From Laetmonice hystrix (lineage: Eukaryota), in the NCBI GenBank assembly GCA_965235115.1, contig OZ249436.1, positions 9,984,001 through 10,048,000 on the forward strand: DNA of 64,000 nt, given 5' to 3'. The notes below the pieces were generated by a model, which saw only the letters and a program-made list of their open reading frames with translations, ran no database searches and was not told the DNA's origin. The first letter of the stretch is position 1. Every line of letters begins with the position of its first letter. The translations under genes were made by a program, and so were the position numbers. Below are positions 1-60,200 of this stretch, piece after piece.

Positions 1-2044
1 AACGTCTATCTCCAGGATCGAGTTAAGCCTTATCAACGTCGCGATTCATGCATATAAACGAGGCCAGCTGCTTCCCTTTGTGCTCCAGTACAATATCACT
101 GACCTTAATGTGCAATGGTGACCTTTCAAAATTGAAATATGAGCATCTCGAACAAGACATGATAAAATTGAGCTTTCGAATCTCGTTGGGTACACTGACT
201 TCTGGTTCAAGGGAGGAGCGTGTACTTTGAAACACTTGCAAAGTGTCCAGACCGTATTCTTCAAAACGATACTTTTGCTGCAAGAAAGATGTTCAGCTCG
301 CGAACATATTTTGAATTCACCTTCGAGGAAGTTTCACCATAGCCAAATTGAACATAATGTCACGCATGTCCGACAGCCCGAAAACCCTTGTCGTGACCCC
401 TGCCTTAGGGGGTCAGCTGCCCTCTGTCCGGTCGGCGTTCCATCCTACAAACTCATTAATTAATTAGCTTTCCCCTAATGAGATGCAAATTGAAAGAAAA
501 TTACAACGGCCGGAACATTAAAAATCAAATTACGAGCAGCGGCTGCGGTCGCCATGGGGGATTTGGATGATTCCTGGCGGTGAATCAGAGCATGAAATAG
601 ACTAACGGAGGAGATACGGGTTTGTCGTTGACCTGTGAACGTGTGAACCGCCAGCCTCCACCAGCGCACAGCCACTGTCAATCTCGTAAAGCATTTGTTC
701 TCGGGCGCTCATAGTCACCCATCCAGCTAATCGATTAGAAGCATGTTCGTTCTTTTGAACCGAAACGAGAAGCAAATAAGAAATTGTTGGTGTAGACAAG
801 GTCATTTCCCTCAGGAAATTGTCGTTTGCCTGTATCAAGACATTGGCCCGAGCAAAATGTGAGAACGCATATGATTTAAAGACATGAGGCTGGTCGGTTT
901 CACCACGACCAGAGTAACAACCCTCTCAGGAGAGGCAGTATCTTAACTTGCAATGGCGTGTGATGTTTAATACAATGAATAACGCATACTGCTGTTTGTC
1001 ATAAACAGCGCCTCAATACATGTACAGGCCCCTGTTCTACATCATTCGTCCAACCTCTATCAAGCTTTAAAAGGAGGCTGGAATAGTCCGCGTGATGCCT
1101 GCCATTATTGCAGTTTTGTCCATCAGGAATTCTGTTTTACCTATAAAACCACTTATACTCACCTTTATAAATACCGTTGTGCATAAGTGATGATTAGTGT
1201 CATATGATGAAAGACTCAATTATGAGAAAACACGTTAAAAATAATGACAAAATTATCACTTAGGAAACAAATCTTACTGGAAATGTAAGCGTCTTTACAT
1301 CAAGCCTTCTACACAAACGCTTAGATATATTTTAAAATGTTCTGTATAGCTTCGTATCCAACTGCTGCGGCATTTCATACAATATTTTGAATTGTCAGTG
1401 ACACTCGATACAGAAAGACATGAGTGTGTCACATCTTTGATCTTCGACAGCAGACCAGAAAGAAACGTTAAAACGTACAAGTTTAATAAAATTGTCATCA
1501 ATACTATATGCATGGCGTGAAAGGAGCATGACCGTGTTGGAAATGCCATGCTGGTCCATGCTGATTTAAATCGTTTCCATCAAAATGTTTCATGCAAAAT
1601 AAATTGGTAAAATGTGATATGCCATAATAAATGGTTCTAATGGTAAAAAGGGGATTTTGATTAAAACGGTCAAGCGTAAGTTCGGTGTACGAAAAATTGA
1701 CACCATATAAGACACTGCAATGAATTGCACATGCCATAATTGGTGAAGGGTTCTCACAAAGTCACAAAAATTACGAACGTGACGCGGGATGACGAACGTT
1801 TGGTTCAAAAGGAAAACATAAATGCATACGCCTGAGATTGGTTCGATATAAACGGAAACGGTGGGCATGGTGGAACAAACGTCCTAAAATCACGGAAGGA
1901 CTGGAACACTTCGGAACTGACAGCAACATCGGAAACACGGCAATGCAACCAACCAACTAGTTAACCAACCAACCAACCAATACGTATGAGGTATGTATAA
2001 TATAGATAGAGAGAGAACACAACGCAACACCTAGTGTGTCCTAC

Positions 2045-2233
2045 CTTTGCATGCTTTTCTGTTGGTTATTGGTTTGGTTTGATCTCGGTAATATCCCTCT
2101 TGACAATAATGGCAATGTCGGCCGGCCGTGTTGTGCCTACATTTTAGGCACACTCCCCCACTCCGCCGCCCCGACAAAAGGTATAATTCCTTATTGAAAC
2201 GACATCGGCGGGCGTGCAAGTTACAGTTGCAGG
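2045..2233 (-). CDS. NTN1: Netrin LE2 (V-2) exon, copy B
   Basis: ttgcag|CC..AAAG|gtagga; 189 bp; [63 protein letters not shown]. Confidence 0.93.
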
Positions 2234-5200
2234 CTGCAAGACAAAAGAGGAATGAGAACTATAATAGTATAAAATGCATGTTGCCTACCTTTGCACGCCT
2301 TACGATGAGTGATGGGCTTATGTTGGTCCCTATAAAAGCCCTCTTTACAGTAATGGCAATTGCGGCCTGCTGTGTTATGCCTACAGTTCACGCACACCCC
2401 TCCGCTCCTGCGGCCAGATAATTTGTATAGCTCCATATTGAAGCGACATTGCCTGGCATGGAGATTACAGTTACAGGCTGAAAGTAGATAGAAGGAAGAT
2501 GTTTAACGACAGTTAAAGGGTAGATCAGGGCAGAGACGAGCGGTTAGTAGTTGGGCCCACTGCAAGTCTACAGCACCATGGCGTGGCGTACACCAAGCGA
2601 CGCAGGATGACTTCTTGCACGGAGACTCGCTCACACAGTTGGAGAATGCAGTCTACACTTCCTATACCACAAGTCAACCAAGCGTCCCAACCGCCCTTCT
2701 AGAAAAGCAAGACACTGAGGCATTAGCACAGAAGACATTGCAATGCAGTTATCCAAAGAGAGGCGGGGAGTATTTAGACGCATTCCGTCGACCACATCGG
2801 CGTAAAGAGGCTAGCATGTCCGTATTAGTAATATCCAGGAATAAAAGATGTGTTTACTAGTCTAACAAATCAAGCAGTTACTGTCAAGTAGGACTTCATA
2901 ATTTTTCTAAGACCATGCATAATGCAAAAGGTACCACGGTCCACAAACATTATTGCAATGTGGACCCTATATAAACACTAACCTAGAAGCTGTAGCATAA
3001 AAGCACTGCTTAACATATAAAAGCCAATTTCTTTATGTAATGTGCCCCCCTCTTTCTATTCCCAATAATCCTTTGGAAACATTTCATTCATTGAATGTTA
3101 AAAAAATGTGTTAACAGTATTAGGTGGTTTTATTATTCAATGGGCATTATAAAAATCATGATAATTTCAAACTTGCTAAGGTTTCAATCATGAGGCATTT
3201 TTTAATCCATTTATTTATAGGCCCTGTTATTCCTAATACATCAAGGAATCAGTCTGTCAAAATATTGTAGAGTAGAGAAGTAAAAATATAATGTTTTACC
3301 GAAAATAATCCCCCCAGCTGATTATAAATTCACGGACAAAAAAATGAGAAGACGTATAGAATATCATAGCAAAATCCTAAGTACTTTAGGGGAACATTTC
3401 TTAGAATTAATAAAATCTGAAACGATCTTATTACATTATAGAAATCTATTCTAAGGTGGGTATTAAAAAGGCTTTCACTTTCCAGTGATTTACGAGTAAC
3501 AAATGGAGTGAAATACGGGTTAGATCTAATATAAAAGCATAATTAATCCTAACAAAATGGGTTTAAAAGCAAACACAATACAATCACTTCATGCAGTCTA
3601 TGCGAATATTATCGGCACAAGCAAAGCATAAAGCAACCGTGTGTCAAAAATGCAAGTGCGTTTATAAGAATTATTGAGCTTTCAGAATAATAGAAAACAA
3701 GAAAGTCTGGAGATTAGGCAATGTCGTGTCTCCCAACGAGAATAACAAAAAGCGTCAAAATGTAATATCCACCCACCCATATAGCCGCATTGCTTTTTGA
3801 TAATTGTATTTTGAAGACAAAAGGAAGGCATGCAAACAGTAGGCCAACATGCATGGGTCAACCTGTTAGGAAATCACCGAATCAATAAACAAGAGGTATA
3901 TGGCGGATATCAAAGTTGATTCGGTGATACATCACATAAAACAAGGATAATAAATAATTGTAGATATACATGCATAAAATATACGGTTAATCCAATGTAT
4001 ATCTATTACAGCAGAAACGAATACTAATCTATATAAATATCCTTTTTTCAGCATGTATAGAATAGATAAGCATAATCCAGACCAAATCCACCGATTTACT
4101 ATACTTTGTTTTGGCTATTACATATAGTTCTCTGGTGAAAATATGATGGTGCACATGGTACGTCGCCAAAAATAATGTGGGCCTATGTGTTATCTTTGTA
4201 GTCCTATGTGCGAATATGTATGCATAATATTTCATAACTTAATCTGAACCACTGCTTGTCTTATGTTCATGTTTTATTTCGGAAGGGTTGTTACCCTCAA
4301 CTTTCATACGAACCACTAGCCCACACCTTAGGCCTAAAACATAATCATGTTGGACTACTAAAAAATCATTTCAAGGTATTGTCAAGCAAGGTCGGGACCT
4401 ATATATTATAAATGTTGCCTAATAGCGGTGTAGTTTTTGAAGGGATAAATGTAAACACATCTGTACAATGGAAGTCAGGGGCCGAGATCTGACAGACATC
4501 CCTAACCTAGCACCAGGCAGGTGTTCCATGCAGCCCTAGACATCCAGACAATCTTTACGGGATCTGGTAGAGGCGTGGTTAGTATTGTATGCCGATATTC
4601 TGGTTATCTGTCCCACTCGCTGGGCTTGATACAATCATCATGTCTGGCCCGGATCTGTCGGGGTCAGCATCGTTTATTTTCCACCCTACCCATGTAGTGT
4701 CACGCCCCGGCTATCGGACGATCGGGCCGACAAAACCAAGTGGACATGTAATAGGTACATGGGTTTATATACACTTTACGGGGATGGCGAACAGGCTTGC
4801 AAAGTTAACACGCCCATGTTTTTCTGCTATGTCAGCAGATTTGAGAACAGATTGCTCGTGCTCTGTTCATTCTGTATCAGCAGTCGATTTGCGATATAAT
4901 TTTGTTTTTGATCATGTTTTCGTGTAGGAAACAAATGGCCCCGGTTTCTGTCTGTTTGTAGACACGTCGGCCGACGTGTTGGGATAACCCCGACGGTCTC
5001 CAAGTACAGGCGGCCCAGGGCCGACAGATTGGTCGGCGCAGCCACTGCGGTGAAGACGTAGCCATACGTCACACGTTGACACCACTTGGGACGGCGCAGT
5101 ACAACTTGACACCCCTTATCGACTTCATTGTACCAGCTTGTTCCGCCTGGCCCCGGCGCGTGATCTTTAACCTGAGCAGCCCGTCGTATAAAGACTGCCC

Positions 5201-20200: not shown

Positions 20201-22258
20201 AGTTAAACATTTAACATAACAAAAGCTACAGAGCCGATAATACCAGGACCCAGTTCGTGTGGGTGGTTTCGTACAATAGTTGCCTGTCAAGTAACGAGAC
20301 ACAGAAAGCCCCACACGTCACCACTCCTGCAGCATTCATTCTGCCGGAGTGTATACTACAAACTGTTGTGACAAATGTTTACTTGTATCACACACTCTAT
20401 GCACGTAATATACCTCTCGCTGACGGATAACATGTTGGTTCATTTTTTGGCCAGTACAACATGTTAGCCTGTCTAAGTTGTGCTGCTGCCATCCCTTTGA
20501 TATCCGGGGTTTGATGACGTTTAGCTACCATGATAAAGTAACTGGCAAGAAACACGTGTTGACCATATGCTGGTTTATATACGATACGATCCTAGGTTTG
20601 AAAACTTGCAAGATGCAGCAGCAAAGGGGCGTCCCCTTGCTGCTGGGTACCAGGCTGATACATGGAAATGGGAATGATAGTCTATGTTATATATAGTCTA
20701 AAAGGTTTTGTGAGCGAATCAATATGTTTGGTGGGTAATTCCATATCGGCGAGGGCAGTGTTGGGAGACGGTTGCCGGCCGACCGATCAGGGCAGGCAGT
20801 GAGGAGGGCGATGGTTTGGGTATGATTGGCGTGGATGGCGGTCCAGACGTCTGGTTTACGTCAGGCTGCCGTCATTCCTCACACTTATGTCATGTTACCT
20901 GCGAATGACTGCGACTATGGCATAGTAAACGGGATCGAGAGGGGGAGAGTTTTGTCAGATTGACAGACCATCAATGCCGATACCTTGGATGATTATACTC
21001 AATTTAAAAGCTAACTGATGTGTTCCAGCCCCTTTCTGTGTTCACTGAGTTATGTTGGGTGGGTGTTTTGTATCGTGGTTTCTATAATGTTACCTCGATT
21101 GAGGCCGCACCATGTGCACCATGTGTAAGACAAGTCGACAATAAAATACGAGAGCTGAAGGAAACTAAACGCATGCACGTCATAATGTAAGAAAAAGGTT
21201 TCATGAGGAGACGTAAGACGTTACTTACCTACGCACTCGTTGGCTTCCTTAGCTGTGGCGCGAGCCCACGGCCGGTCAAAGTGAAACGGTTTGCATCGTT
21301 CGCAGTCGGTTCCCGCAGTGTTGTGCTTACAATCGCACTGGAGTTTTCCCTCCTTGTTTGTCGTACAGCGAGACGCGTGACCATTGCATTTACAACGACC
21401 TCCGACGGCGAAGTCGGACAGGGCGTAGAAGTAGCTCTCCCGGGCCTCTTCCTCGTTCTCCTCGTCACCGTAGGTGTTGAGGCGGTTGAAGACCACCATG
21501 ATGTCCGTGGCTGTCACCCAGTCCTGGAGGACGGGTGAGTTGTCGAAGTCGTAGGCGGACGGGCGTCCTTCCAGGGTGCTGAAGGCGACGCGGGCCCCAC
21601 TCAGCGGGTCAATGTTACTGTAGGCATCAGTACATAACGCCTCCTGTTCGTTAGCTTTGGTGATGACAGCACGCGGTGATTTCGAGTACATTTTCTTACA
21701 CTGGCTGGAATAGAACTGGAAGGGTACCCAACTGTTGCCGTAATCCGTACTCTTGAAGATAGCCATCGAGTCTGGCCGCGCAGAACAGAACTGCAAGCTG
21801 ACATAGGTGAGCTCATACTTCTTCTCGAGAGAAAGAGTGAGCGTAACGTTTTGAGGGAACTGGACGAACGGTTCCGACATCCAGCACGTCAAGTTGTTGG
21901 GGTTGTTCAGATCGGTTAGATAAGTTGACGGGTGGCGTCTTTTAGGGTGGTTGGAATCGCAGATGAAACAATTGCGTACCATCTTGCCCTCTTTATCAGT
22001 TGTCGTCTGACAATAGCGAGAGGGTGGTGACCCGCACGTGCTCGACGCCTTCACGTCCTTGCCGAAAGCGGCATTGACAAAGTCGGGAATACAACGTCGC
22101 GGCTTGTTCTGCTCGTCAACACAAGGGTCCGGCGGATTCTGCTGGGCCGCAAACATGTTTAGAAAAGACGCCGCCCCCGATGTCCGCACGTGCAACCCCA
22201 GTAGGCACCACGCAACGCACAGCAGAACGTGCACACGCCACAACCTTCCCGCAAACAT
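2045..22258 (-). CDS. NTN1: Netrin gene, 5' part (exon 1 21229-22258; LE2 exons 2289-2477 and 2045-2233; LE3 and C345C exons not found, presumably left of the window)
   Basis: Translation matches netrin-1/UNC-6: [67 protein letters not shown], then [23 protein letters not shown]. Phase-1 junctions are compatible. Confidence 0.96.
2289..2477 (-). CDS. NTN1: Netrin LE2 (V-2) exon, copy A
   Basis: tttcag|CC..AAAG|gtaggc; 189 bp; [63 protein letters not shown]. Confidence 0.95.
3825..3854 (-). promoter_or_regulatory. Candidate intronic RNA docking element complementary to the netrin exon A 5' splice site
   Basis: Inverted repeat with 2274-2301: 26 Watson-Crick and 2 GU pairs, two 1-nt bulges; contains two UGCAUG motifs. 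Confidence 0.6.
6615..6792. mobile_element. Palindromic MITE
   Basis: Imperfect long inverted arms TGGCCC..TCTTAAGACT. Confidence 0.6.
9121..9385 (+). mobile_element. Full-length tRNA-derived SINE with a V-domain-like core
   Basis: A box TGGCCGAGTGG, B box GGTTCGATTCC, core GGTTTCCTCCGGGTACTCCGGTTTCCTCC, (ACCC)n tail, 12-bp TSD CCCTGATTAATC (9109-9120, 9386-9397). Confidence 0.9.
12198..12740. repeat. 34-bp minisatellite, about 16 copies
   Basis: TGCCGCGATATGTATCTGATGAGGCTTCYATTCG. Confidence 0.95.
17274..17377. repeat. 27-bp tandem repeat, about 4 copies
   Basis: TGTAAAATTGTCATTATGTATTAATCA. Confidence 0.9.
21229..22258 (-). CDS. NTN1: Netrin coding exon 1: signal peptide, laminin N-terminal domain VI, LE1
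   Basis: ATG at 22258, hydrophobic leader, ends ANECV G|GTAAGT (phase 1). Confidence 0.97.
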
Positions 22259-23329
22259 GTTTATAGACTCTCGATTTGTAATAAAAATCTGAGTACCAAA
22301 AGTGTGTTTTCTAGGCTACTGTGATACTAAAGAGGGTCTAACTAAGCTAGCATCCTTTATAATGAGCCCCAACAGTGGTCGGAAATAATTTACCTGTACA
22401 ATGTGGTCAAACAGACCTGCTTCAATAGATTTCCATCTGACACAAGGGGTTGGTTACAAACACATAAACATCCAGGCTTCAGCTTAATGAAATAAATCCA
22501 AAATACGCGCAAAACATAAACTTGTAAAATCCGGACCCGATCTTAACACTTGATTATTAGTTGTGATATCCACGACTTGCTATGGCATTCGGTTGCTCTT
22601 CGGTTGAACACAAATTTCGCAGTTTTTAATCTAGGCTTAGTCCGTCCACGTCACTGCAAAAGTCTTTGAAACTCGCCAAATTGTGTTCAAATGTCTCCAC
22701 AGATATGTTTTTACCCTTACGTTCCGAGTGAGGTATGGTGGTTCTCACATATTTGGCGAAGGTTCTCCTTAACTTCAGGTCAGTAATTACCTTGGTGTTG
22801 GGTCGGCGGTTCTCTTTCCTCACTTTGGCAGCGGTCAAGGCAAGACGATCCAGATGTCAACTGCGACTACTAGCTTGAACTTGTTAAGTTGTCGTGTGAA
22901 CTCGAATCATCCTTTTCTACTTTAAAAGTCCTGAGCCGGCCGAACAACCAACAACAAGCAATTTAAGAGTAAAGTGAGATTTGTGAAGTTTGTGGCCCAA
23001 CTGATAGCTGTGACGCTGAAGCCACTGTAGGCGTCAGCTCCCGGCTCGGCCGTGTCTGTACTGGGCGATGAGCGGCCCGCCACACACCGGCGGCAGCGAG
23101 TCGCTGGACCTCTGCTGGGAGTTCTGTGAGCCGCTCACTCCTTGCAGACGAGGAGTAGGTGGACATCACACTTTACCCTGGAACCATGCCACAGAGTAAT
23201 CGGTGATGGTGTTTTCTGCATCAATAGTCATAATCGTCAGCTGCTCCCTGCTGTCTTACCGTCGAGGTGTGAAGTCCTCGCGCGATTAAATGTTCATGCT
23301 CGTGTCGCCTCTGTTTGGAGGTGTGATTG

Positions 23330-32700: not shown

Positions 32701-35700
32701 TGGTAGTTGTGTCGTCTGGGACACGAAGTGAGGAGAGACTCGAGTTGGAACACGTGAGGACATGTCCCCGACACACACACGGCTCCACACACAGCACGTC
32801 TGGAAACCACCGAGTCATATTGTTTTACTCTTCTCATTGCTCTTATTGCTTTTATCGTAATTAATAAATATTCTCATCAGCGCTTAGCATAGTCATGACC
32901 GAGCAGGAAAGGCGACAGTACATATATTTACTAGTATTTAAGTATCAGGAGAAATATATGAGGTGTACCTTCTAATTTACAATACCGTTCGTCTTCCCCG
33001 TATTTCTTACAGTGTACCTCACCGTCGCATACTTTGCTGTGCGGCAAACAGTAAGTCTCTCCTTTACACTGGAGAAGGCCTGTTTGGGAACAAAGATGTC
33101 ATTAAGGCCTGTTTGGGAACAAAGATGTCATTAAGGCCTGTTTGGGAACAAAGATGTCATTAAGGCCTGTTTGGGAACAAATATGTGAACCGTATGTCAT
33201 TGTGTCTTAACCCTGCTCAATTCATGGGTAAAAAATGTGTTGTAAGATGTAAGTGTTCCTATTCCTGACCTCATGCAGTGTGGATTATCTGTAGCACATT
33301 ACTGTGACACCGCATTCAGTGTGGATTATCTGTAGGACATTACCGTGACACCGCATGCAGTGTGGATTATCTGTAGCACATTACTGTGACACCGCATTCA
33401 GTGTGGATTAGCTGTAGGACATTACCGTGACACCGCATACAGTGTGGATTATCTGTAGCACATTACCATGACACCGCATGCAGTGTGGATTACTGTGTGC
33501 ACCGCATGCAGTGTGGATTATCTGTAGCACATTACCGTGACACCGCATGCAGTGTGGATTATCTGTAGCACATTACCGTGACACCGCATGCAGTGTGGGT
33601 TATCTGTAGCACATTACCGTGACACCGCATGCAGTGTGGATTATCTGTAGGACATTACCGTGACACCGCATGCAGTGTGGGTTATCTGTAGCACATTACC
33701 GTGACACCGCATGCAGTGTGGGTTATCTGTAGGACATTACCGTGACACCGCATGCAGTGTGGGTTATCTGTAGCACATTACCGTGACACCGCATGCAGTG
33801 TGGGTTATCTGTAGCACATTACCGTGACACCGCATGCAGTGTGGATTACTGTGTGCACTGCATGCAGTGTGGATTATCTGTAGCACATTACCGTGACACC
33901 GCATGCAGTGTGGATTATCTCTAGCACATTACCGTGACAACGCATGCAGTGTGGATTATCTGTAGCACATTACCATGACACCGCATGCAGTGTGGATTAT
34001 CTGTAGGACATTACTGTGACACCGCATGCAGTGTGGATTATCTGTAGCACATTACCGTGACACCGCATGCAGTGTGGATTAGCTGTAGCACATTACTGTA
34101 ACACCGCATTCAGTGTGGATTATCTGTAGCACATTACCGTGACACGTGTAGTTGAGACAGTTTTCTTCATCCTGCCCGGAAGGACAATCCCTAATCCCGT
34201 CACACACTTTGTTGTATGGTACAAAGTAGGCGTCGGGACAGTGGAACACACCATCACAAGTCATGTCGCCTGAATCAACAGTCAAAAATGAGGTTTTTCA
34301 AAAACCTTCTTTAAACAGGATTTCCAATGAGATTCTTTTCCCGTAAAATGGAAGACATTCCTAGCATATTGTCCTTTCCATGCCATTGTCCATTACAATC
34401 AACTGATAGCAGATGCTACAGTTCTTTCGTAGCTACCTCCGACCACATAGCATTGCTCTAATTTTACACCTGCACCGTTTTCTCACAGCGTCGCCCCGTG
34501 AGTAGTATATGAAGAGTCGACACTGTAGCAGGTACTCTTTATAAGATACATTTATACGCTTAAAAGATATACAAACCACACGCTTTTCGGACATGACTAC
34601 CATCCCGGCAAGACTGTTGGACCTCAACAAGGCCTTCGATGGCAGCGAACGTGTCAAACTGACACGTTTCTGCCCGAGAAAAACAACGTTCGTGACCCAG
34701 CTGACAGAACACCTGGTCGGGTTCAGGGCATCCAAGGAAAGTAGTATTCTCATCTTCACGGAGATTCTCAGTGTATATGGTGAACAGCGTTTGTAATTCT
34801 ACAACATAGGTACAAACAGGCCTTTCATAAGTTTGGTAACACGGGGTACAGAGATCACTGTGAGATCGAGACAGGTGGGAGGGGGGTGGGGGAGAAGCAT
34901 CAGGAGTCGGGGGTGGGAGGGAGGTAGAAGCGTCAGGAGTCGGGGGTGTGAGGGAGGTAGAAGCGTCAGGAGTCGGGGGTGTGAGGAAGGTAGAAGCGTC
35001 AGGAGTCGGTGGTGGGAGGGAGGTAGAAGCGTCAGGAGTCGGAGTGGGAGGGAGGTAGAAGCGTCAGGAGTCGGGGTGGGGAGGGGGTGGGTGGGAGGTA
35101 GAAGCGTCAGGAGTCGGGGCGGGAGGGAGGTAGAAGCGTCAGGAGTCGGGGGCGGGAGGGAGGTAGAAGCGTCAGGAGTCGGGGGCGGGAGGTAGGTAGA
35201 AGCGTCAGGAGTCGGGGGCGGGAGGGAGGTAGAAGCGTCAGGAGTCGGGGGTGGGAGGGAGGTAGAAGCGTCAAGAGTCGGGGGTGGGAGGGAGGTAGAA
35301 GCGTCAGTAGTCGGGGATGGGAGGGAGGTAGAAGCGCCAGGAGTCGGGGTGGGAGGTAGGTAGAAGCGTCAGGAGTAGGGGGTGGGAGGGAGGTAGAAGC
35401 GTCAGGAGTCGGGGGTGGGAGGGAGGTAGAAGCGTCAGGAGTCGGGGGCGGGAGGGAGGTAGAAGCGTCAGGAGTCGGGGGCGGGAGGTAGGTAGAAGCG
35501 TCAGGAGTTGGGGGTGGGAGGGAGGTAGAAGCGTCAGAAGTCGGGGTGGGAGGTAGGTAGAAGCGTCAGGAGTCGGGGTGGGAGGTAGGTAGAAGCGTCA
35601 GGAGTAGAGGACTGAAGGAATTTTACCGGCATACTGAGTTTCATCCTCCCGAGCGAGCCCCGCGCAGTCGCTGACCATATCATGATGGAGACCTTCCGGT

Positions 35701-38700
35701 ATACACTGCCCCGAGAAGCACTGGAAATCTCGACATCGTCCATCTAGAACGTCAATGTACATTTAGGTACAGAAACTATAGACACAGCATGGAGTTATCA
35801 GACTTGTATTTAATAACAGACTTGCTTACGACATGCTTCATGCCCTTCATCAGAACCATCCAAGCAGTGGACCTTGAAGTCACAAACACGCTTGACATCA
35901 ATGCACTGCCCATTATTACACCGGAACTTTGTGAATGGACATGCTTCGTGAACTGAAACAGACAGACATTTACTGATTTGTTTTAGGTATAAAAAAGGAT
36001 ATAAATCAGATAGTAGCCCACTAGAATTACCCATACCTAGTGTATTTATTACAAGGCACACCTACCTATCAACTAAAACTGTCAACTACAATGTATATAC
36101 AGAGGTTTGAAAGCAACCCACCACAATTATCCTCATCGGAATTGTCACCACAGTCATTACGGAAGTCACAGAACAATGACATCGAGATACAGCGACCGTT
36201 CTGACATCGGAACCTTTCCCGCCCACAATCTAAACATAATCCACATTTTTAGTGTAAGACAGCATTATCATCTACTAAGTAGTACGGAATTCCTACAATT
36301 TAAATTAATTGCCTCACATGAGTCGTTAGGGTAATCTTCGAAGGCAATGTTTATATGTTCTTTCTACATTGTGTTTTATTATGTGAGATATTTGTTGATA
36401 TAAATTCTATGAATGTTTATAATACATTGTGTTTTATTATGTGAGATATTTGTTGATATAAATTCTATGAATGTTTATAATACATTGTGTTTTATTATGT
36501 GAGATATTTGTTGATATAAATTCTATGAATGTTTACAATACATTGTGTTTTATTATGTGAGATATTTGTTGATATAAATTCTATGAATGTCTATAATACA
36601 TTGTGTTTTATTATGTGAGATATTTGTTGATATAAATTCTATGAATTGGAAGTATCGTACCTGAGCAGACCTCGTCTGTGTTATCCAGGCAGTCATTTTC
36701 TCCGTCACAGTAATAATCGTATGATATACACACTCCATTTCCACATCGGAATTCGTTCAGTCCGCAATCCTCATTAAAGGCTGCCATTCAGAAGTAACGT
36801 AATGTTGCATCAAATGTTCACCCATTTTGTGTTTCTGCTCTAGGCTAAGATTTGCTGAACGAGAGTTTCCACTTTTTGATGAAATAATAACTTACTTATT
36901 GCAGCAGTTTGACAGAGAACGTTATAGGATAGGCCATCATGATTAAACTGAACACATTCCCCTTCCTGAAGTCTGTACCGAACCTCAGTACTAAGTCGGT
37001 GGTTCTTATACACCTGTACATGAAAAACATGAAACGATGACATTCGTGATTTGATAACTGAATTCCACTCATTTTAATAGGAAATTCTTCATCTTTTACC
37101 ACTGACAGCTATCCTGCATTTTAATAACCCGACTTCATCCCATCTTGCGCAAAATCTAGGATTTAATCATGAATAATAAATTTAGCAACGAAACGCATGT
37201 CTCCTGCTCTGACATAGGCCGATATAATAAACCTACTTCAATAAACTTGCACGTGCTGTTAGAAGTCGATAACCAGATGTTGCCCATGTAAACCTTATGT
37301 CTCCACAGGTCCAGAAACTTGACAAACACAGTGAACAAGTCGGTGTTCATCCGTGCCATCCGACCATTTCTTGTCTGACAGACTTGTTCAGCGTCCTTCA
37401 CACTCATGCCACCAGGCGGCGCCACCTTGGACTCGGAGTTTTTCTGACGTTGAATCACCTTATCATAGTCAGTAAACATTTGGTAGCACGTTCCCTGCAC
37501 GTAAATCCAGCCTCTCGGACAGCCTGCAAGGACACTCAGGAAATGGATAATTTGATATAGAGGGATAGAAGCTTGTGGCAAATAACTGAACAATGATTTT
37601 GAATAACACAATGTTATATAAATAGACGCACAAACTTGAGTATACACGTATATACATGTAGGCCTACATCATTGTACTGTACATTACTCTACTGACCTAT
37701 GTATCCTTTCTCCTGATATTGTTGTAGAGTGTAGGTTTGGTTAACTTCTTTGTTACCTGAAACGAGCATGCTGGTCAATAAACCCTAATAATAACAATTT
37801 TCATCTTCACAAATAAGGACGTTTCGTAGTTGTCCTAATATAGGCCTATTTCAACCTCTCAACGAATCCACTGAAGGGGGCCAGGACATTCACCTACACA
37901 ATTATAGGCTACTGCCGTGAAATGACAAAAGGAAGCAAGTCCAAAGGTTCAAGTTTCGAGAAATGGACATAAACAAGTTGTCTCTACAGTGCAGTTGGAT
38001 GGACATGCTTGCTTCTGTCATGCGACTGATAGCTTCATAGGATGTTTAGCAGAAATACACCCATTGATAGATAGGACTTACTTCCCTGAATCCAAATTTA
38101 CACTTAAGTCGATTTTGATGAAAGTTGGACTTGCTTCCTTTTGTCATTTCACGGCAGAATACTTGTAGGCCTACCAGTCAAACTACGACCAAGAGTTTAA
38201 AGGTAGCCATACCCTTAGCCTGAACACTGCCCTGCGTGTTGGCGACCTTTTCACAGATAATTCCAGCGAAGAAGAGCGGGTAATCACAAGGCACCTTCGC
38301 CCAGTTGAGAGACGTGAACGGTGATACGGCAAGAATGACCGTGCACAGGGAGCCAAAGTCTGATTTAGGTTCCGGGGTACGCAAACCCAAGAATTCCATC
38401 GTTTCTACCATGTCTTCGTGTACTATAGTCTGCTCCCAAGGCTTGCGTGGCTGGTACCAGTCGTTATACCTGAACCATCGCCCAGAGTTTCATAATTAGG
38501 AAAAATCTAAACCTCACACGTATTCCTTTTTACGAATAGGCCTAGCCTACCCAATTCTATTTTAATCTAGTAGAGGCATAGATTGGCATACACATTCACT
38601 GGCGGATCCAGGATTTCACTAAAGGGGGGGGGGGGGCACAGAAAAGCAATTAATAATTGTTTGCATTACTAATTAAAGCTTATGCTCTTGAATGAGAGTT

Positions 38701-41700
38701 TTAGAGGTATAGATCTATAGGCCTACATAATAGCTCGGGGTTTCCCTGAGATACACCGTCAGTGTTAAAATTAATTAAAAGTGAGTAGGCTATATAAGCC
38801 TATAATTAGTGAAGCTAAAAGGCGGGGGGCACGTGCCCCCTGTGTCCCCTGGATCCGCCTTTGACATTGTTGCACGCGCGGCTATGTTTTGAAATATAGT
38901 AATGTCACACGAACGCGTAGGGGTCACGTCACAATGACGGAAGCGTTGTCCGTGTGCGTGCTCGATTTTAGCCACTTATAAGGTGGGCGACTATGGAATT
39001 TGTGGCCAACAAAGTCCCTTTCTACCAATACTGTTTTAGTGGCTTTATTGTTTCTGCACTGTAGAAATAAGATGCACCGATATACTTACGACATGAGGGT
39101 GCCATCAAGCCATTTGTAGCGGCCGTTACGACTGGTTAAGCCGAGGTATATGAGTCGGTGATTTACTTGCCAGGTGGCCGATGGGTCGACAAACCATTTA
39201 TTGGACAACTGATACTGAACAAAGAAACTGATGATTGATATTCTAAACCTCAAAAAGGAGCATTCTAATCACGAATGTAGTAGCCAGTAGGCGAATGAAA
39301 CAAAGTTTTGTCCACCCTTTTCAAAGAATGATGGCATTTTAGACATATTATTATGCTCTATAGCTTGAGGCTCCAGGATCTGGCAGATCTATACCAGCAG
39401 CTACTAAATTATGAAAACGCTACAACTCTGATGGGTCATTCGGCTTTTAAGCATTCAATGGTCCAATGTCAGCTAACTTTGTAACGCAAAGTCGGGAATT
39501 TGTTGTACCATGCTTGCTACTTTCATACACCGGATGCAGGACAGTACCCATGTCAGCGAACAGTCTGTTACATGAATTAAAAATGAACGGTAAATATTAG
39601 GATCAATTGGCTGTTTGTATAGGTCGCAGGTGCATGAATGACTTTTGAAGAAGAAAACAACAGCACATCAGTAAATGCCTTGACGGTGGACTACCTTCAG
39701 CCAGGTGGCGTCGTCCTCGTCTTTGATGGCGAACAATGTGGCGTTTTCCGACTGGCAGTGGTCGAGCGCAGTTTGCCAAGTTTTGTGATAGGCCGACTGG
39801 ATGGGTTCGTAATGCCGGTCCGTCCACATGTAATACCGGTAACAATGGCCGCGATAGTAATCATAGTACGTCGGGCATGACCCGTCCGATGTAGTACCTG
39901 TAGGGTTCCAGGGTTAATCGGCATCAATGGTTATCTAAATATAGGATAGTACCTGCAGGCCTACATAACTGAGTGGATTTATACTGGTACTTACTCTCTG
40001 TGAACGGAGGTTTTTCCATGTATGCGGTGGAATAAGACAGTTTAAATTCCCATCTTCGCGGTAGTGTTGTTCTGATGGTACTCAACTCAATTCCCAACTT
40101 CTGTCCAGGTGGAATCTGACAAGGACACCAACAAGTGCAAGAAACTTGTGTTTCTTTATGTGTGTGTCTTTTTTAAAACAAAAAAATATCTAAACGGTTT
40201 CTATGTGTTAATGCTTTGAGCTTTGAAGGTAAGTTTTGCTAACAGCAGATGCATAATTTATTATATTCATCTATCAGGAAGGCTGGACAGAGAAGTGTAC
40301 CTTAATTTGTTCCTGTGCTATGAATAGTTCAGTATCCTCGCACAGTTTTTATTTTAAAGGAAGGCTGGACAGAGAAGTGTACCTTAATTTGTTCCTGTGC
40401 TATGAATAGGTCAGTGTCCTCGCACAGTTTTTATTTTAAAGGAAGGCTGGACAGAGAAGTGTACCTTAATTTGTTCCTGTGCTATGAATAGATCAGCATC
40501 CTCGCACAGTTTCAGGGGGGTTGTCTCATACTGACCTTAATTTGTTCCTGTGCTATGAATAGATCAGTATCCTCGCACAGTTTCAGGGGGGTTGTCTCAT
40601 ACTGACCTTAATTTGTTCCTGTGCTATGAATAGATCAGTATCCTCGCACAGTTTCAGGGGGCTTGTCTCATACTGACCTTAATTTGTTCCTGTGCTATGA
40701 ATAGGTCAGTATCCTCGCATAGTTTCAGGGGGGTTGTCTCATACTGACGTAATTTGCCGGAATCCTTGGCAATCTCTATCACTGAAACGGCATGATTGCA
40801 TTTAGCGATTAGTAGGCTACATCTATGATCTAGTGATCCATCTCCAGGCTAGAGTCTGAGATGAAACACTAGAACTTGATATTACTCTACAACACAGGCA
40901 CCTATAATTATGGCGGAAAGCCAGAGTGGCAAAGAGAAGGAGCTCGTTTCAGTAAAGGGCCTTATCCACTAAGCCGATTTCCCTTGCGACGGCCATGCGA
41001 TTAATGGTGAAATTTTTCCTGGCTGGCCTTCCCTGTTTCAGGAAATGGGTTCCATCCTTTAATCTCAAAATAACAGTGAAATAAAAGGGTGATGTCAAAA
41101 TCGCATGGACGTGGCAAGGAAAATCGGCTTAGTGGATAGCCTATGGCCCTTTAGACTCTACGAGCTCGTATGGCCCTACAGCTCGTAAACAAGATAAAAC
41201 TCGTACATTTTGTTATTATGACCTACAGAAAATACGAGTTCGTAAATTACGAGTGTTTAGTGAAACGGTTCCCAGACGCATAGACTCTATGTTCTACTTA
41301 CACCTGAAGAACTCGTTACACTGTCCCGGGATAGCCGGCCCCCTGACGTAGTGTACACTGACGGCGAAGTAGACATGTAAGTCTGTCTTGAGTACCCACG
41401 ACCACAGACCCGGGCTCACCTGACCCGGAAAACCGGGCGACAAAAACACACCACAACGCGACGTCTTGGTCGTACTGGTCGACGTCTCCATGGTGTATTG
41501 GTCGCAGGACGACGGCCCTACGACAGTATTCTACTTACATGAACAGGTCGATTGTGGGCACTCCCCAGCATTCAACATTGAACTTCTTTCAACCCTTATC
41601 TGTATCGACTTTCAAACTTTGTTGTGATGGTATTTTAAAAGCAACGGCTTGTCAAAAATCATATTTGGACCACCGCAAGGCCACCATGTATACTCACCTT

Positions 41701-44700: not shown

Positions 44701-47700
44701 GCTATGTTCACGACATAATTTAGTAATTTGTGTGCGTGTTTGTGTGGGTGTGTGTGTGGGTGTGTGTGGAGGGGCATAATTAGTTCCAAGGTTCTTATAA
44801 ATACGTAAACTCTTGGGTTTTTTTTGGCGGGAGAAAATGATCATTAGGAAAATAGGACTTCCTTAGTATCGGTATACACAAAAACAATGAATTTACCTTT
44901 GGCACCATACGTAGCCTCAAACCTGAACCGACTGTCCCGCCTGGTACTTGTAACCTTGACGACCAGTTGAAATCCCGTGGCTACAAGCTGGTCACTATAT
45001 GTGCTGTCATTGATGGAACGGTCAACCCTGTTTGTGGAAAACTCGGAATATCCGTCATATATCTGCAAGAACAAGGTCGCTTGTACAGATGAACACAACA
45101 GCATAAAATTGTTCGATGCATCTAAAGATTTTAGCACTAAAATCTTCTGCCCACCCATAGACTGCATGGCCCTGGTACCAGCAGTCTTTAACACGGCTCG
45201 GTGTATTTACCTGTAGGGTCGCTGAGACTGAGGCGGACATTGTCCACTCCAGGCCGAGCGTGTCTCCGACGGGGACCTGGACACGCCACACGTGGACGTT
45301 AGAGTTGATGGTTTCCATGGTAACCGGCGAGGTGGACGCCGAGAAACTAGACAGGTTCTGCTATCCCGGTTCCGTCTCCGGCTCCGGCTTAGCACCGCGT
45401 CGCGTCATCAGAAAATACCGTGACGTCATCGATACGCGCGTATTTGAAGCTGAGCCGTTCCCGGGTCCCGAGATAGATCGGCTCTGTCCCGTAAGTGTCT
45501 AACGGCGTAGGGTTTTCCTCGATTTCTTCTTTCCATGAGTTGACACAATGGATTTGAAGTGTCAAGTAGTTGGATTAATATTTGAAGACTTTAGTGAATC
45601 GGCTGTCCGCACATATCTCGTGGTATTTTCAACTATTTTGGTCATAAAGTGATGTGCTGTTTTGCCTTCACTGCAGCTAGGCCGTGTCATCGCATGGCGT
45701 TCGCAGGGCGACACAATCTGTCAGAGCAGCCAACTCGACCAAAGTCAAATCACCCGCCATATGTAATTCACTCTTGTTTTTGTTGTTGTTATGTTGTTGT
45801 CAGGGCCGTAGCCTGCGGGGGGGGGGCAGGGGGGGGGCAGCTGCCCCCCTGGGTTTTTTCAGTTTTTTTGTGTTTTTTTAACCCACACCCCGGGCCAGCT
45901 CGACCGGCGCAATGATGCGCCATCACTTGGCAGGCCTACTGCCCCCCCCCCCCCCCCCCCCCACGCATTTGGGCCAGGCTACGGCCCTGGTTGTTATGGT
46001 AACCTGGCCACTTCCTATTACGCGGCGGCACCGGCGTAGCAGAACCAAAATACGACGTTCCGTCTCCGGCTCCGAGATCGGCATAGCCGATCCCGGAGCC
46101 GGAGACGGAACGGGATAGCAGAACCTGTCTACTGCCGCTTCGTCCGCGGACGACGGACACTGGGTTCACTAGGCGGCGCCTGGCGGGGTCTGCGTTACCA
46201 GAGACGAGGTTACAAGTGTTTTAGTCGAGCCGTCGTGTACTTTTGGGCCACCGTATTACGTACATCAAATCATTTTTTGGGGTGGGGTGGTTTTTCATTG
46301 ACTTGATCTGCAAGTTTATAGAGTCTAGGTATATCAGAACTACAGGGCGAGACTTACTTATAGAGTTGTACGTAAACACTATCTTATGACGCGAACTAAT
46401 CCAGTTGACATTGTCAAGACGAATCCGAAGGTTATTGGAGGATGACGTCACAGACCACGAGACCTGTCTACCACAAGCTCGGATCAGGACGGGGTCGTCT
46501 TCACGGGAGCCATTGGTGACCGCGAACGCTCCATTTTCACAGTATGGACCTGTTGTCAAATCAGCCATAGTCGTGTTGTCATAATCATTTAGGGGGACGG
46601 AGATGGCTTATTGAAATAATACTCGTGCCATATTTAAACCATTTTATGTTTGATATACAGAAGTTTTATATCACTGCCAAAATATCAAAGTGTGAGCGGC
46701 CATTGAGGAGCGTAATGTCTTACCGGTATCTTCCATGTTAAACTGAGTCACAGTAAAGTTGACGTAGAGACCGCGTCTGACGGAGATGATCCACTGACAG
46801 CCTGACTCAGAGGGTGGACCGTCCGAGATCTCCACGCTACCACAGTCAGCCGTGAAGGTCTTCGGTGTGCCACAGCCAGACTCACCCACGCCACGGCCAC
46901 ACGCTGCGCAAACACCAAACAGCTACGTCAAACTACGTCATGATCACCGGGGATTCATGAAATAAATCGGCATCAAAAACGGCTACGTCAAACTACGTCA
47001 TAATCACCGGGGATTCATGAAATAAATAGGCATCAAAATACTCCTGAGGTAGCAAATGGTCTCTGGAATAATGAGTGAAGAAATGATTTTTTTTGCATTC
47101 AACCATTTGCATTGTTAAACCGTATACCCCACAGAGAAAACTGAGTATAACGTACAGTCGGCGGTGTAGGCAAGCTGGAATCCGCCAAGGTTCACGGAGC
47201 CGTCTGTTGTAAAGATGACGACAGCAGACGACCCGGATGTAGATACAGGTCGGCTTTATTAACATCGTAGAAAAAGTTCGGTCAAGTCCGTCATTTCTAA
47301 CAGATAACTTAAAGAGGCTAAGCCTTTTCAAAGCTTGCAATGGTCTAATCAAAACTGAGGACTCTAGACTCAATGTAGAAAAAAGCTCGCTAATAAAAGA
47401 TAATAATTGATCATGATATATTAAAAGGGGACCATATATACAGACTGAGACCAGCGTTTTTTAATTATGTTTTCTTTAAAACGATTTATTTGACTATCAA
47501 CGAATACATTATAGATGTTGAAGCGTTCAGACAGGACGTCCGACCTTGTGTTTATGTATACATGTCATGTACCTGAGTACGACGTCTGTTCGGTTGTCAG
47601 TGAGTGTTCCACAGATAGGACCCAGCAGGATGGTACGGGTGGCGGCATTCACGCCATCCAGAACAGTCAGAGAATCAAACACACAATCTTTGCTTCTCTC

Positions 47701-52676: not shown

Positions 52677-52975
52677 ATCTAATTAAAATTAGATCTTAGT
52701 TATTTCGCATGGGCTCCATACTAGGATCTAACGGCATCCCGTACGGGGTCACCTCAGGCTGCCCTTTGACCCAGATTCTAGTGTGCCGTTGAAAATGCCT
52801 ACGAGCGCCCACCGAAGATTTCGTAGGCGGCTCGCTGATTGGCTGAATCCCGAGGTCAACCTGAGGTGACCCCTAATGCCAGTAATGGGATGTCCTTAGA
52901 TCTAGGTATGGAGCGCAGACAGAACTGACACAGCCGAGAGAGACGCGGAATACCAAGATCTAATTTTAATTAGAT
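52677..52975. mobile_element. Foldback or nested palindromic MITE
   Basis: Nested inverted pairs ATCTAATTAAAATTAGATCTT, CCATAC..GATCTAA and GGGGTCACCTCAGG. Confidence 0.7.
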
Positions 52976-58602: not shown

Positions 58603-58998
58603 GCTTTTCCACGAGGTGGATGCGGACCCGGAGGCGGGCGTGGGCGGAAAAAATCGATCCAACATATTTCCCTTTAGCTGTCTGCACGACGCGGGTGCAG
58701 CTGCGGAGCGGGTGGACGGACGCGGACGCGTTTTTTTGAATCGCTCATGTAGCGATTTTTTCCGCACCCGCTTGCTGCCCTCGCGGTATTGCGTCATCAT
58801 CTTCTGGGAATTCCCCTGGTAACAATGAAATTATGAATTTTGCAACGGACTCCACGGACTGAAGACCCAAACCCGCGCGAAAACTCCCGCGTGTGTGCCC
58901 GTTTCGTGGAAACACAACGCCCGCACCCGTACCCGCGCCCGCCGCCGCCTCCGCCTCCGCCTCCGCCTCCGCCTCCGCATCCGCCTCGTGGAAAAGAC
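58603..58998. mobile_element. GC-rich Harbinger-like MITE with internal (CCGCCT)n
   Basis: Inverted arms CTTTTCCACGAGG.GGATGCGGA..GGAGGCGG. Confidence 0.6.
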
Positions 58999-59124
58999 AT
59001 AATAAGGGCAGCACAAGTCTGGAATCGACGAATTTCGCTCTCTGCCTGTCGCGGCCATTTTGACCTCCCGGGCCAGGGAGTAGCCTGGTACTCTGCCTAA
59101 CAGACGCGTTCGCTATGTTACGTA

Positions 59125-59357
59125 TGGAATACCGGCGACGACATGCGAGATGCGAGAAGCGACATAAGACCGAACAGTGTCAATTTAGCACATAGAATGT
59201 TTCTTATTGACACCGACATTAAGATCCACTGCTCAATTAGTGCCTATTTAACAATAATTTTGGGGCTAAAGTGAAAACTGACACTAACCCTAGGCCTAAC
59301 CTTTACCCTAACCCAAACACACTGTCTCGCATCTCGCATGTCGTCGCCGGTATTCCA
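59125..59357. mobile_element. MITE copy 1 (TA TSD)
   Basis: 33-bp perfect TIR TGGAATACCGGCGACGACATGCGAGATGCGAGA; internal TAACCC-like units. Confidence 0.88.
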
Positions 59358-59957: not shown

Positions 59958-60200
59958 TGGAATACCGGCGACGACATGCGAGATGCGAGACAGTGTGTTT
60001 GGGTTAGGGTAAAGGTTAGGCCTAGGGTTAGTGTTAGTTTTCACTTTAGGGAAAGTTTATCCCCCAAATTATAATATAGGCTATTAAATAGGCACGTGGA
60101 TCGTGATGTCGGTGTCAATAAGAAACATTCTATGTGCTAAATTGACACTGTTCGGTTCCATGTCGCTTCTCGCATCTCGCATGTCGTCGCCGGTATTCCA
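59958..60200. mobile_element. MITE copy 2, opposite orientation
   Basis: Same TIR; internal sequence is the reverse complement of copy 1. Confidence 0.88.

What the first reader, a model, noticed from the sequence alone, without database searches (positions are those of the whole stretch)
2274..3854. Long-range RNA duplex that would mask the 5' splice site of netrin exon A (docking/selector-like)
Seen: pre-mRNA 3854-3825 (AUGCAUGUUGGCCUACUGUUUGCAUGCCUU) can pair with all 28 nt of 2301-2274 (AAGGCGUGCAAAG|GUAGGCAACAUGCAU) by 26 Watson-Crick and 2 GU pairs with two 1-nt bulges, spanning the donor. Its core also pairs with the exon B donor region GCAUGCAAAG|GUAGG (about 2040-2054), where GCAUGC matches better than in A. 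Known: competing docking/selector pairings control mutually exclusive exons in Dscam and 14-3-3 zeta. Inference: one upstream element silences one donor at a time.
Basis: partly seen in the sequence, partly recalled or inferred. Interest (0 to 1): 0.85.

Follow-up and report, generated by a model that had tools for sequence, protein, structure and literature searches.

The report
Intron stem covering netrin exon donor
A 30-base piece of intron in an invertebrate netrin gene can pair almost perfectly with the splice donor of one of two alternative exons, which could push splicing toward the other exon, but the pairing is seen only in this species and nothing yet shows that it is used.

Summary
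The main observation holds. On the minus strand, 3854-3825 pairs with all 28 nt of 2301-2274, the last 13 nt of netrin exon A plus 15 intron nt. There are 26 Watson-Crick and 2 GU pairs, two bulges, and about -41 kcal/mol. This is far beyond shuffles (mean -27.3, sd 1.6) and 13.6 kcal/mol better than any other site in the 18.75-kb intron. It dominates a 1.8-kb fold.

The pairing with the exon B donor is present but no better than background, so one element alternating between two donors is not supported.

Exons A and B (189 nt each, 55-nt intron between them) encode alternative copies of netrin's second laminin-EGF domain. All 30 full-length lophotrochozoan netrins I checked carry only one copy. 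The short A-B intron is conserved in relatives (49-76 nt), so steric exclusion probably enforces either/or use.

The stem is absent from the nearest relatives and from 64 homologous donors, but those relatives are distant. No RNA data could be obtained.

Best reading (about 0.4): a lineage-specific stem that hides the exon A donor and favours exon B. The main rival is a neutral short inverted copy.

The parts
3825..3854 (-). Upstream intronic element, arm 1 of the duplex. It lies about 1.35 kb upstream of the exon A acceptor and contains two UGCAUG hexamers (3853-3848 and 3834-3829).
   Evidence: pairing. (a 161-nt stretch around it is single-copy in the 627-Mb genome). (inverted similarity to the donor region is confined to these 30 nt). 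(UGCAUG positions).
2274..2301 (-). Arm 2 of the duplex: the last 13 nt of exon A (2301-2289) plus the first 15 nt of the A-B intron (2288-2274). The exon A 5' splice site lies in the middle of the helix.
2289..2477 (-). Exon A, 189 nt, phase 1. It encodes a complete laminin-EGF domain with 8 Cys, the A-type second EGF repeat (LE2) of netrin.
   Evidence: borders, translation. (PF00053). (aligns to netrin-1 residues 341-402 of 8snp_A). (dN 0.066-0.107 against dS 0.68-1.86 versus relatives).
2234..2288 (-). A-B intron, only 55 nt. A branch-point-like UUCUCAU, read by eye, sits about 36 nt from the donor.
   Evidence: length. (49, 69, 57 and 76 nt in relatives L009-L012). The branch point was recognised by eye and not tested.
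2045..2233 (-). Exon B, 189 nt, phase 1, the B-type LE2 repeat. It is 52 of 62 residues identical to A.
2034..2064 (-). Exon B donor region, which can pair weakly with 3844-3818 of the element.
   Evidence: (I4): -22.9 to -24.6 kcal/mol, within background.
21229..22270 (-). 3' part of the upstream constitutive exon (laminin N-terminal domain plus LE1). Its donor GT is at 21228-21227, so the upstream intron runs from 21228 to 2478 (18,751 nt).

Best explanation
The window holds part of a netrin gene on the minus strand, from a lophotrochozoan that is probably a mollusc. Its second laminin-EGF repeat is encoded twice, by tandem exons A and B that are used either/or.

Inferred: the either/or rule is set mainly by the 55-nt intron between them. 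It is too short for U1 at the A donor and U2 at the B branch point to sit together.

In this species a 30-nt element lies 1.35 kb upstream of exon A. It can form a 28-bp helix with the end of exon A and the start of the A-B intron. When the helix forms, the exon A donor is buried and exon A is looped out, while the branch point and pyrimidine tract of exon B stay free. Splicing should then shift from A to B. The element is transcribed before the donor, so it can compete with U1 as soon as the donor emerges.

Shown: the sequence, its statistical rarity, its thermodynamic dominance, single inclusion of A or B in relatives, and the conserved short intron.

Inferred: that the helix forms in vivo, that it lowers exon A use, and that it is maintained by selection rather than merely tolerated. 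It is a feature of this lineage, not part of the ancient A/B mechanism.
For: - Exact duplex: 28 pairs, 26 Watson-Crick plus 2 GU, -41.3 kcal/mol.
- Best partner in the intron by 13.6 kcal/mol.
- 0 of 100 shuffles come within 9 kcal/mol; z is about -9.
- 0 of 150 natural controls reach its fraction of perfect pairing.
- 0 of 64 homologous LE2 donors from other animals exceed 0.55 of perfect, against 0.78 here.
- The helix is in the minimum-energy structure of 3950-2180, with pair probabilities mostly 0.85-1.0; lower at the bulges and the outermost pairs.
- The element is single-copy, so it is not a repeat family, and no Rfam family matches there.
- Both differences from a perfect complement are G.U wobbles that keep pairing.
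- Exon A is intact and under purifying selection, so its use matters.
- A/B single inclusion: 30 of 30 chosen full-length lophotrochozoan netrins carry one LE2 (17 A-like, 13 B-like). Ostrea edulis isoform X4 carries A and X2 carries B.
- In another clade (L083, L073, L055) RNAalifold predicts a 23-pair intronic helix around exon B. RNA structure at this exon pair is therefore not without precedent.
Against: - No conservation. L010 (9.7 kb of upstream intron) and L012 (6.4 kb) have no partner for donor A better than -27.9 and -27.4, which is shuffle level. L009 and L011 have none within their short contigs.
- These relatives are distant (dS 0.7-2.4, introns unalignable). Recent origin or loss cannot be told apart, and no close relative was available.
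- One wobble (UG opposite CG) is what CpG decay of a copied segment would give, so the wobbles are weak evidence for selection.
- Without the element, the folding model still predicts the donor mostly paired (0.86 against 0.94), so predicted accessibility does not separate the two states.
- Inverted repeats of similar BLAST score are common in the window.
- There are no RNA data for this species, so usage of A against B and formation of the helix are untested.
- Relatives keep A/B either/or without this stem.
Confidence: 0.4

Rival explanations
1. Neutral by-product. A short inverted copy of the exon A donor region was written into the intron by a replication or repair template switch. It has since picked up two transitions and two 1-nt indels, and it has little or no effect on splicing in vivo, for example because the intron is coated by proteins or the helix is outrun by U1.
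For: - The inverted similarity has sharp edges and covers only 30 nt.
- It is absent from all relatives and from 64 homologous donors.
- The intronic half of the donor arm is itself lineage-specific.
- One wobble is a CpG-to-TpG type change.
- Inverted repeats are frequent in this genome.
- The scan that found it looked at very many exons, so rare accidents will turn up (inference).
Against: - A -41 kcal/mol helix over a splice donor is expected from established splicing biochemistry to hinder U1, so being entirely without effect is not the default.
- Exon A is under purifying selection, so a harmful stem should have been removed.
- Both substitutions keep pairing.
Confidence: 0.35
2. One reading: a docking site that pairs alternately with the A donor and the B donor and silences one donor at a time, so that the competition itself decides the choice, as with Dscam or 14-3-3 zeta docking and selector sequences.
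For: - The element's core does match GCAUGCAAAG|GUAGG of exon B (9 Watson-Crick pairs, one GU, 5 Watson-Crick pairs, one bulge). A 3' extension of the element matches exon B at 16 of 19 positions (I4).
- For an exon-extended B query the element is nominally the top partner in 31.9 kb.
- Tandem exon duplication is a published route to competing selectors (PMC6071210, abstract read).
Against: - The B pairing is -22.9 to -24.6 kcal/mol, equal to or worse than unrelated sites, and is not among the element's ten best partners. It follows from A/B homology.
- A is favoured by about 17-19 kcal/mol, so equilibrium competition would be one-sided.
- No conservation.
- Covering a donor represses it, whereas selector pairing activates.
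- The short A-B intron already explains the exclusion.
Confidence: 0.08
3. Editing-site complementary sequence. The helix exists to make the end of exon A double-stranded for an ADAR enzyme, recoding one of the two conserved lysine codons (AAG 2301-2299, AAA 2292-2290). Any splicing effect would be secondary.
For: - A 28-bp near-perfect helix spans an exon-intron junction and has six exonic adenosines inside it.
- That geometry resembles known exon/intron editing duplexes such as the GluA2 R/G site (recalled, not checked here).
Against: - No RNA reads could be laid, so no A-to-G signal was seen or excluded.
- The lysines are invariant in the relatives' A and B exons, except for one K-to-R in L009 exon A.
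- Abundant recoding is known mainly from cephalopods (recalled), and this 627-Mb genome is not of cephalopod size.
- No conservation.
Confidence: 0.07

Closest known systems
Docking site / selector sequence pairings in mutually exclusive exon clusters (Dscam1 exons 4, 6 and 9; 14-3-3 zeta; srp). Seen: PMC4691838 in the search listing with the start of its abstract; PMC6071210 abstract.
   Same: A single intronic element lies kilobase-range from a cluster of homologous either/or exons and is complementary to sequence next to a variable exon. The homology of A and B gives the element a second, weaker target.
   Different: Only one exon has a significant partner. The target is the donor itself, so pairing should repress rather than activate. 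It is not conserved in any relative examined, whereas these systems are defined by conservation and covariation.
Competing and looping intronic structures at the two either/or exons of human ATE1 (PMC7797038; search listing with the start of its abstract).
   Same: A two-exon cluster whose ratio is set by long-range intronic helices.
   Different: ATE1 has five conserved elements, with two arms competing for a third. Here there is one helix, no demonstrated competitor and no conservation.
Stems that sequester a 5' splice site, such as the MAPT exon 10 stem-loop and the SMN2 exon 7 terminal stem and long-distance stem
   Same: The 5' splice site lies inside a helix, which is expected to compete with U1 snRNP and lower exon inclusion.
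   Different: Those stems are local (tens to a few hundred nt) and have been tested by experiment. This one closes a loop of about 1.5 kb that contains the whole exon, and it is untested.
Steric-interference either/or exons: a too-short intervening intron or donor-to-branch-point distance. Passages read: PMC5740500 (under 50 bp in 57 human clusters) and PMC4165533 (five C. elegans clusters). Alpha-tropomyosin exons 2/3 is recalled.
   Same: The 189-nt exons keep the reading frame if both are included, so exclusion must be mechanical. The A-B intron is 55 nt and stays short (49-76 nt) in relatives whose other introns are kilobases long.
   Different: The minimum splice-able intron of this animal is unknown. 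A more distant clade has 169-188-nt A-B introns, so steric exclusion cannot be the universal rule for this exon pair.
Rbfox 'RNA bridges': distal (U)GCAUG sites brought to a regulated exon by long-range pairing (Lovci et al. 2013, recalled; only papers mentioning it were listed).
   Same: A distal intronic element with two UGCAUG hexamers is joined by base pairing to the flank of an alternative exon.
   Different: Here the hexamers lie inside the helix, so protein binding and pairing would exclude each other. Rbfox involvement is pure inference. UGCAUG enrichment in the window is modest once a tandem repeat is set aside.

Membership tests
Docking-site / selector-sequence competing RNA pairings | A cluster of homologous exons of which exactly one enters the mRNA. 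| tested here: inconclusive
   30 of 30 chosen full-length lophotrochozoan netrins hold one LE2, and Ostrea edulis has an A isoform and a B isoform. No RNA data were obtained for this species.
Docking-site / selector-sequence competing RNA pairings | One docking site is complementary to a selector at each variable exon, so the pairings compete. | tested here: not met
   The A pairing is -41.7 and unique. The B pairing is -22.9 to -24.6, which is background level.
Docking-site / selector-sequence competing RNA pairings | Docking and selector sequences are conserved, with covariation, across related species. | tested here: not met
   There is no partner in L010 or L012, and 0 of 64 homologous donors are comparable. 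Caveat: the nearest relatives have dS of 0.7-2.4.
Docking-site / selector-sequence competing RNA pairings | Pairing activates the exon next to the selector. | not testable with these tools
   The geometry predicts the opposite, because the donor is buried. A minigene test is needed.
5' splice-site-sequestering stem | The 5' splice site nucleotides (-3 to +6) lie inside a stable helix. | tested here: met
   2291-2283 are all paired within the 28-bp helix, which is in the minimum-energy fold with pair probabilities near 1.
5' splice-site-sequestering stem | Helix formation lowers use of that splice site in vivo. | not testable with these tools
   No reads could be laid.
Steric-interference either/or exons | The intervening intron, or the donor-to-branch-point distance, is too short to be spliced. 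| tested here: inconclusive
   The intron is 55 nt, and a branch-point-like motif read by eye lies about 36 nt from the donor. Relatives have 49-76 nt. The minimum intron size of this genome was not measured.
Steric-interference either/or exons | No mRNA contains both exons. | tested here: inconclusive
   0 of 30 full-length proteins have both. Only two ab initio partial models (P0011, P0013) and unspliced read-through ORFs do. This species was not tested.
ADAR editing-site complementary sequence | A-to-G differences between RNA and DNA inside the duplex. | not testable with these tools

The most novel reading that the evidence does not exclude
The stem is an evolved, protein-gated RNA switch. 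Its upstream arm carries two UGCAUG hexamers, one of them created by the very G.U wobble that departs from perfect complementarity. In cells with an Rbfox-type protein the arm would be held single-stranded and exon A used. Elsewhere the helix would form and exon B would be used. That would give tissue-specific versions of netrin's second EGF repeat. Together with the unrelated helix around exon B in another clade (L083, L073, L055), it would mean that different lophotrochozoan lineages have independently recruited long-range RNA helices to steer one ancient, apparently undescribed either/or exon pair in a core axon-guidance gene.
Probability: 0.12. Interest if true: 0.7.

Novelty: new member of a known kind. 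Interest (0 to 1): 0.4.

Why it matters
Netrin is a central axon-guidance cue. From recall, its EGF repeats take part in binding the DCC/neogenin and UNC5 receptors; the exon maps to residues 341-402 of solved netrin-1.

An either/or choice between two old versions of the second repeat would give lophotrochozoans two netrins from one gene. I found no paper describing this: full-text searches for netrin with 'mutually exclusive exons' and with 'tandem exon duplication' listed nothing on it, judged from titles and abstract openings only.

If the stem works, it is a simple and testable handle on that choice: one helix, one donor. It would also be an example of a splice switch that arose recently on top of an ancient exon pair. 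If it does not work, it is a caution that very strong long-range complementarity at a splice site can be accidental.

Tried and rejected
There is therefore no evidence on expression, junctions, editing or polymorphism.
I used genome searches and one fetched stretch instead.
- Earlier findings of the scan: nothing for this place, its relatives or netrin.
- RNAduplex with a long 44-nt query and 100-nt targets gives many hits near -40 through large internal loops, so it is not specific. I switched to short target windows. A sliding 30-nt energy scan is dominated by G-rich exon parts pairing with C-rich runs and was dropped.
- Extended inverted homology around the element: none. The local alignment returns only the 30 nt, and the longer 'B' alignment is within the shuffle range.
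- Local hairpin at the exon B donor (exon GCAUGCAA against intronic UUGCRUUGU). RNAalifold proposes it, but single-sequence folds have z-scores from -0.5 to +0.5. It is not supported as a stable structure; the conserved motif may bind a protein.
- Predicted donor accessibility with and without the element barely differs, 0.94 against 0.86 paired, so it is uninformative.
- UGCAUG enrichment: 77 in the window against 43 expected, but about 16 lie in one 41-nt tandem repeat. Only a modest excess remains.
- Known RNA families near the element: none at E up to 1. The element's own local fold is ordinary, z -0.5.
Full report
WHAT IS THERE

The window is G000:C1:9984001-10048000 of a 627-Mb, 35-contig genome. 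A netrin gene runs on the minus strand.
- A large exon (laminin N-terminal domain plus the first EGF repeat) ends at 21229, with GT at 21228-21227.
- An 18,751-nt intron follows.
- Exon A is 2477-2289. The next intron is 55 nt (2288-2234). Exon B is 2233-2045.
- The next exon (third EGF repeat) lies about 11 kb further on, outside the window.
- A and B are both 189 nt and in the same phase. Each encodes a complete eight-cysteine laminin-EGF domain (PF00053) that aligns to residues 341-402 of solved netrin-1, its second EGF repeat. They share 52 of 62 residues.
- The best named matches of the large exon are molluscs at 80-82% (Sinanodonta, Lottia, Gigantopelta, Solemya, Littorina). The animal is a lophotrochozoan, probably a mollusc.

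THE OBSERVATION

3854-3825 pairs with every one of the 28 nt 2301-2274 through 26 Watson-Crick and 2 GU pairs. Two single-base bulges sit on the element side, and the energy is -41.3 kcal/mol. The exon A donor lies in the middle of the helix.

IS IT MORE THAN CHANCE?

- In the real upstream intron the element is the best partner of the donor arm at -41.7; the runner-up is -28.1.
- One hundred dinucleotide shuffles of the intron gave -27.3 on average (sd 1.6, best -32.3).
- Of 150 random natural 28-mers from the window, each scanned against 18.75 kb upstream of itself, only a poly-C run had a lower energy. None reached the same fraction of its perfect-duplex energy (0.72 at most, against 0.78).
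- As an independent natural control I scanned 64 distinct homologous LE2 donors in 80 contigs from other animals. The best reached 0.55 of perfect and -31.8 kcal/mol.
- The 161 nt around the element occur once in the genome.
- No Rfam family matches there.
- The inverted similarity stops sharply at the 30 nt.
- Against this, plain inverted repeats are not rare in this DNA. Sixteen other pairs less than 8 kb apart score as well by BLAST, most of them short-range pairs that look like transposon ends. Here, though, one arm is a conserved exon end and splice site, so the pair cannot have arrived together in a transposon.
- Folding 3950-2180 (1771 nt) as one molecule puts the helix in the minimum-energy structure, with pair probabilities mostly 0.85-1.0.

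THE EXON B DONOR

The described core match is in the sequence, and the element's 3' side extends it into exon B (16 of 19, I4). The energy is only -22.9 for a symmetric 28-nt window, where two unrelated intron sites do better. For an exon-extended window scanned over 31.9 kb of pre-mRNA it is -24.6, against -24.0 and -23.9 elsewhere. With the element as query, donor B is not among the ten best targets. The B pairing is what the A/B homology gives and no more.

ARE A AND B EITHER/OR?

No RNA data could be had for this species, so the evidence comes from relatives.
- I picked 30 full-length netrins (573-664 residues) of molluscs, annelids, nemerteans and brachiopods from the hit lists. They were named records plus transcript-sized assemblies, and not an exhaustive set.
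- All 30 carry a single second EGF repeat, 17 nearer to A and 13 nearer to B.
- In Ostrea edulis isoform X4 carries the A type and X2 the B type in an otherwise matching protein.
- Both copies together appear only in two ab initio partial models (P0011, P0013) and in eleven unspliced read-through ORFs, which show A followed by B across a short in-frame intron.
- A-type and B-type exons are each closer to their counterparts in other species than to each other, so the pair is old.
- Both exons are under purifying selection between this genome and its nearest relatives: A has dN 0.066-0.107 and dS 0.68-1.86; B has dN 0.035-0.069 and dS 1.5-2.4.
- Including both would keep the reading frame, so nonsense-mediated decay cannot enforce the rule.
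- The A-B intron is 55 nt here and 49, 69, 57 and 76 nt in L009-L012, while neighbouring introns are 11-19 kb. Neutral intron sequence is unalignable between these species. A short intervening intron is a published cause of either/or splicing (passages read in PMC5740500 and PMC4165533). I take it as the likely basis here, with two caveats: the minimum intron size of this animal was not measured, and the branch point was read by eye.

CONSERVATION OF THE STEM

One scan of metagenome contigs gave 80 loci with this exon. Four of them (L009-L012) are the nearest relatives with the A-B tandem.
- L010 has 9.7 kb and L012 has 6.4 kb of upstream intron. The best partners of their A donors are -27.9 and -27.4, which is shuffle level.
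- Inverted BLAST of the A/B region against each whole locus finds nothing equivalent.
- The intronic half of the donor arm differs in every relative right after GUAGG.
- The stem is therefore specific to this lineage. With dS near saturation, the comparison cannot say whether it is young, nor test covariation.

MECHANISM

What the anatomy predicts is clear. The helix would bury the A donor and loop out exon A, and it would leave the rest of the A-B intron as free as before (0.31 paired with the element, 0.27 without). That favours exon B.

The element is made before the donor, so it can compete with U1. In a steric-exclusion pair the upstream exon might otherwise have a first-come advantage, and such a stem would give exon B its chance.

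This is inference. Predicted donor accessibility hardly changes when the element is left out (0.94 against 0.86 paired), because long-RNA folding pairs most bases anyway. The difference is one 28-bp helix against short helices.

Exon A is intact and constrained. The stem therefore cannot have silenced it for long. It is either regulated, partial in effect, recent, or ineffective.

RIVALS

- Neutral short inverted copy from a template switch, 0.35. It fits the sharp 30-nt limits, the absence from relatives and the CpG-type wobble.
It fails on the B pairing, on conservation and on the sign of the effect.
- An ADAR editing duplex, 0.07. It fits the geometry but could not be tested.

COMPARISON WITH KNOWN SYSTEMS

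It works most like a stem that sequesters a 5' splice site, combined with looping-out of an exon, set inside an either/or pair that is probably enforced sterically. It is not a member of the docking/selector family, because two defining features were tested and not met: a selector for each exon, and conservation.

The published idea that tandem exon duplication automatically yields two targets for one complementary element (PMC6071210, abstract) explains why a weak B match exists at all.

SEEN ON THE WAY

- In a more distant, AT-rich clade (L083/L079, L073, L055, L078) the A-B intron is 169-188 nt.
- In L083, L073 and L055 a purine-rich arm in that intron is complementary to a pyrimidine-rich arm about 60-130 nt downstream of exon B. 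RNAalifold on these three sequences predicts a 23-pair helix enclosing exon B. Three sequences give little power, and some compensatory counts may come from the alignment. Even so, it suggests that RNA helices act on this exon pair elsewhere.
- In the window's own clade a motif GGUGUUGCRUUGUGU downstream of the B donor (2031-2017) is kept in L009, L010 and L011, although the introns are otherwise unalignable.
- The B exon end keeps GCAUGC at synonymous sites in 4 of 5 species, while the A exon never has it.

VERDICT

This is a real and statistically exceptional complement of a splice donor, and a plausible B-promoting stem. It is confined to one lineage and untested, and the docking/selector reading is not supported. 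Interest is moderate. The old either/or exon pair in netrin, which I could not find described (listings only), may be the more durable result.

Noticed in passing
window 2045-2477 (-), with proteins P0001-P0013, P0133-P0252: Netrin's second EGF repeat is encoded by two tandem 189-nt exons that look like an ancient either/or pair. A-type and B-type copies are recognisable in molluscs, an annelid, nemerteans and brachiopods. All 30 chosen full-length proteins carry one copy, and Ostrea edulis has both an A and a B isoform. Two full-text searches listed no paper describing it.
   Followed up: partly
L083 9882-9909 and 10289-10319; L055 and L073 at equivalent places: In a distant AT-rich clade with a 169-188-nt A-B intron, a purine-rich arm in that intron is complementary to a pyrimidine-rich arm downstream of exon B. 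RNAalifold on three sequences predicts a 23-pair helix that encloses exon B. UGCAUG motifs downstream of exon B are also kept in these loci (read by eye).
   Followed up: partly
window 2017-2031 (-): The intronic motif GGUGUUGCGUUGUGU just downstream of the exon B donor is kept in L009, L010 and L011, although the introns are otherwise unalignable. It can pair with the exon B end GCAUGCAA, but the hairpin is not unusually stable (z near 0). It may be a protein-binding site.
   Followed up: partly
window 2045-2057 (-) and the same place in L009-L012: The exon B end reads AAAGCAUGCAAAG at synonymous sites in 4 of 5 species. The Ala codon of exon A at the same place is GCG, GCU, GCC, GCU and GCC, never GCA. 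This may be an RNA-level constraint on the exon B end.
   Followed up: no
window 2291-2307 and 2203-2219: The 3' end of exon A is 82% complementary over 17 nt to the 5' part of exon B (I8). This is a local alternative partner for the same exon A bases, but it lost to the long-range helix in the 1771-nt fold.
   Followed up: partly
window about 33477-34071: TGCATG hits on the minus strand recur every 41 nt, which points to a tandem repeat with a period of about 41 nt. It inflates the window-wide count of that motif.
   Followed up: no
window 59114-60202; 45348-46131; 37912-38157; 40953-41153; 58604-58996; 52677-52975: Strong short-range inverted repeats (33-252 nt, 85-100% complementary, 100-700 nt apart) that look like terminal inverted repeats of small transposons.
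   Followed up: no
G000 contigs C8 (about 7.21-7.29 Mb) and C13 (about 21.72-21.76 Mb): Further netrin-like loci in the same genome matched the Novocrania netrin exon by exon. I did not check whether they have duplicated LE2 exons.
   Followed up: no
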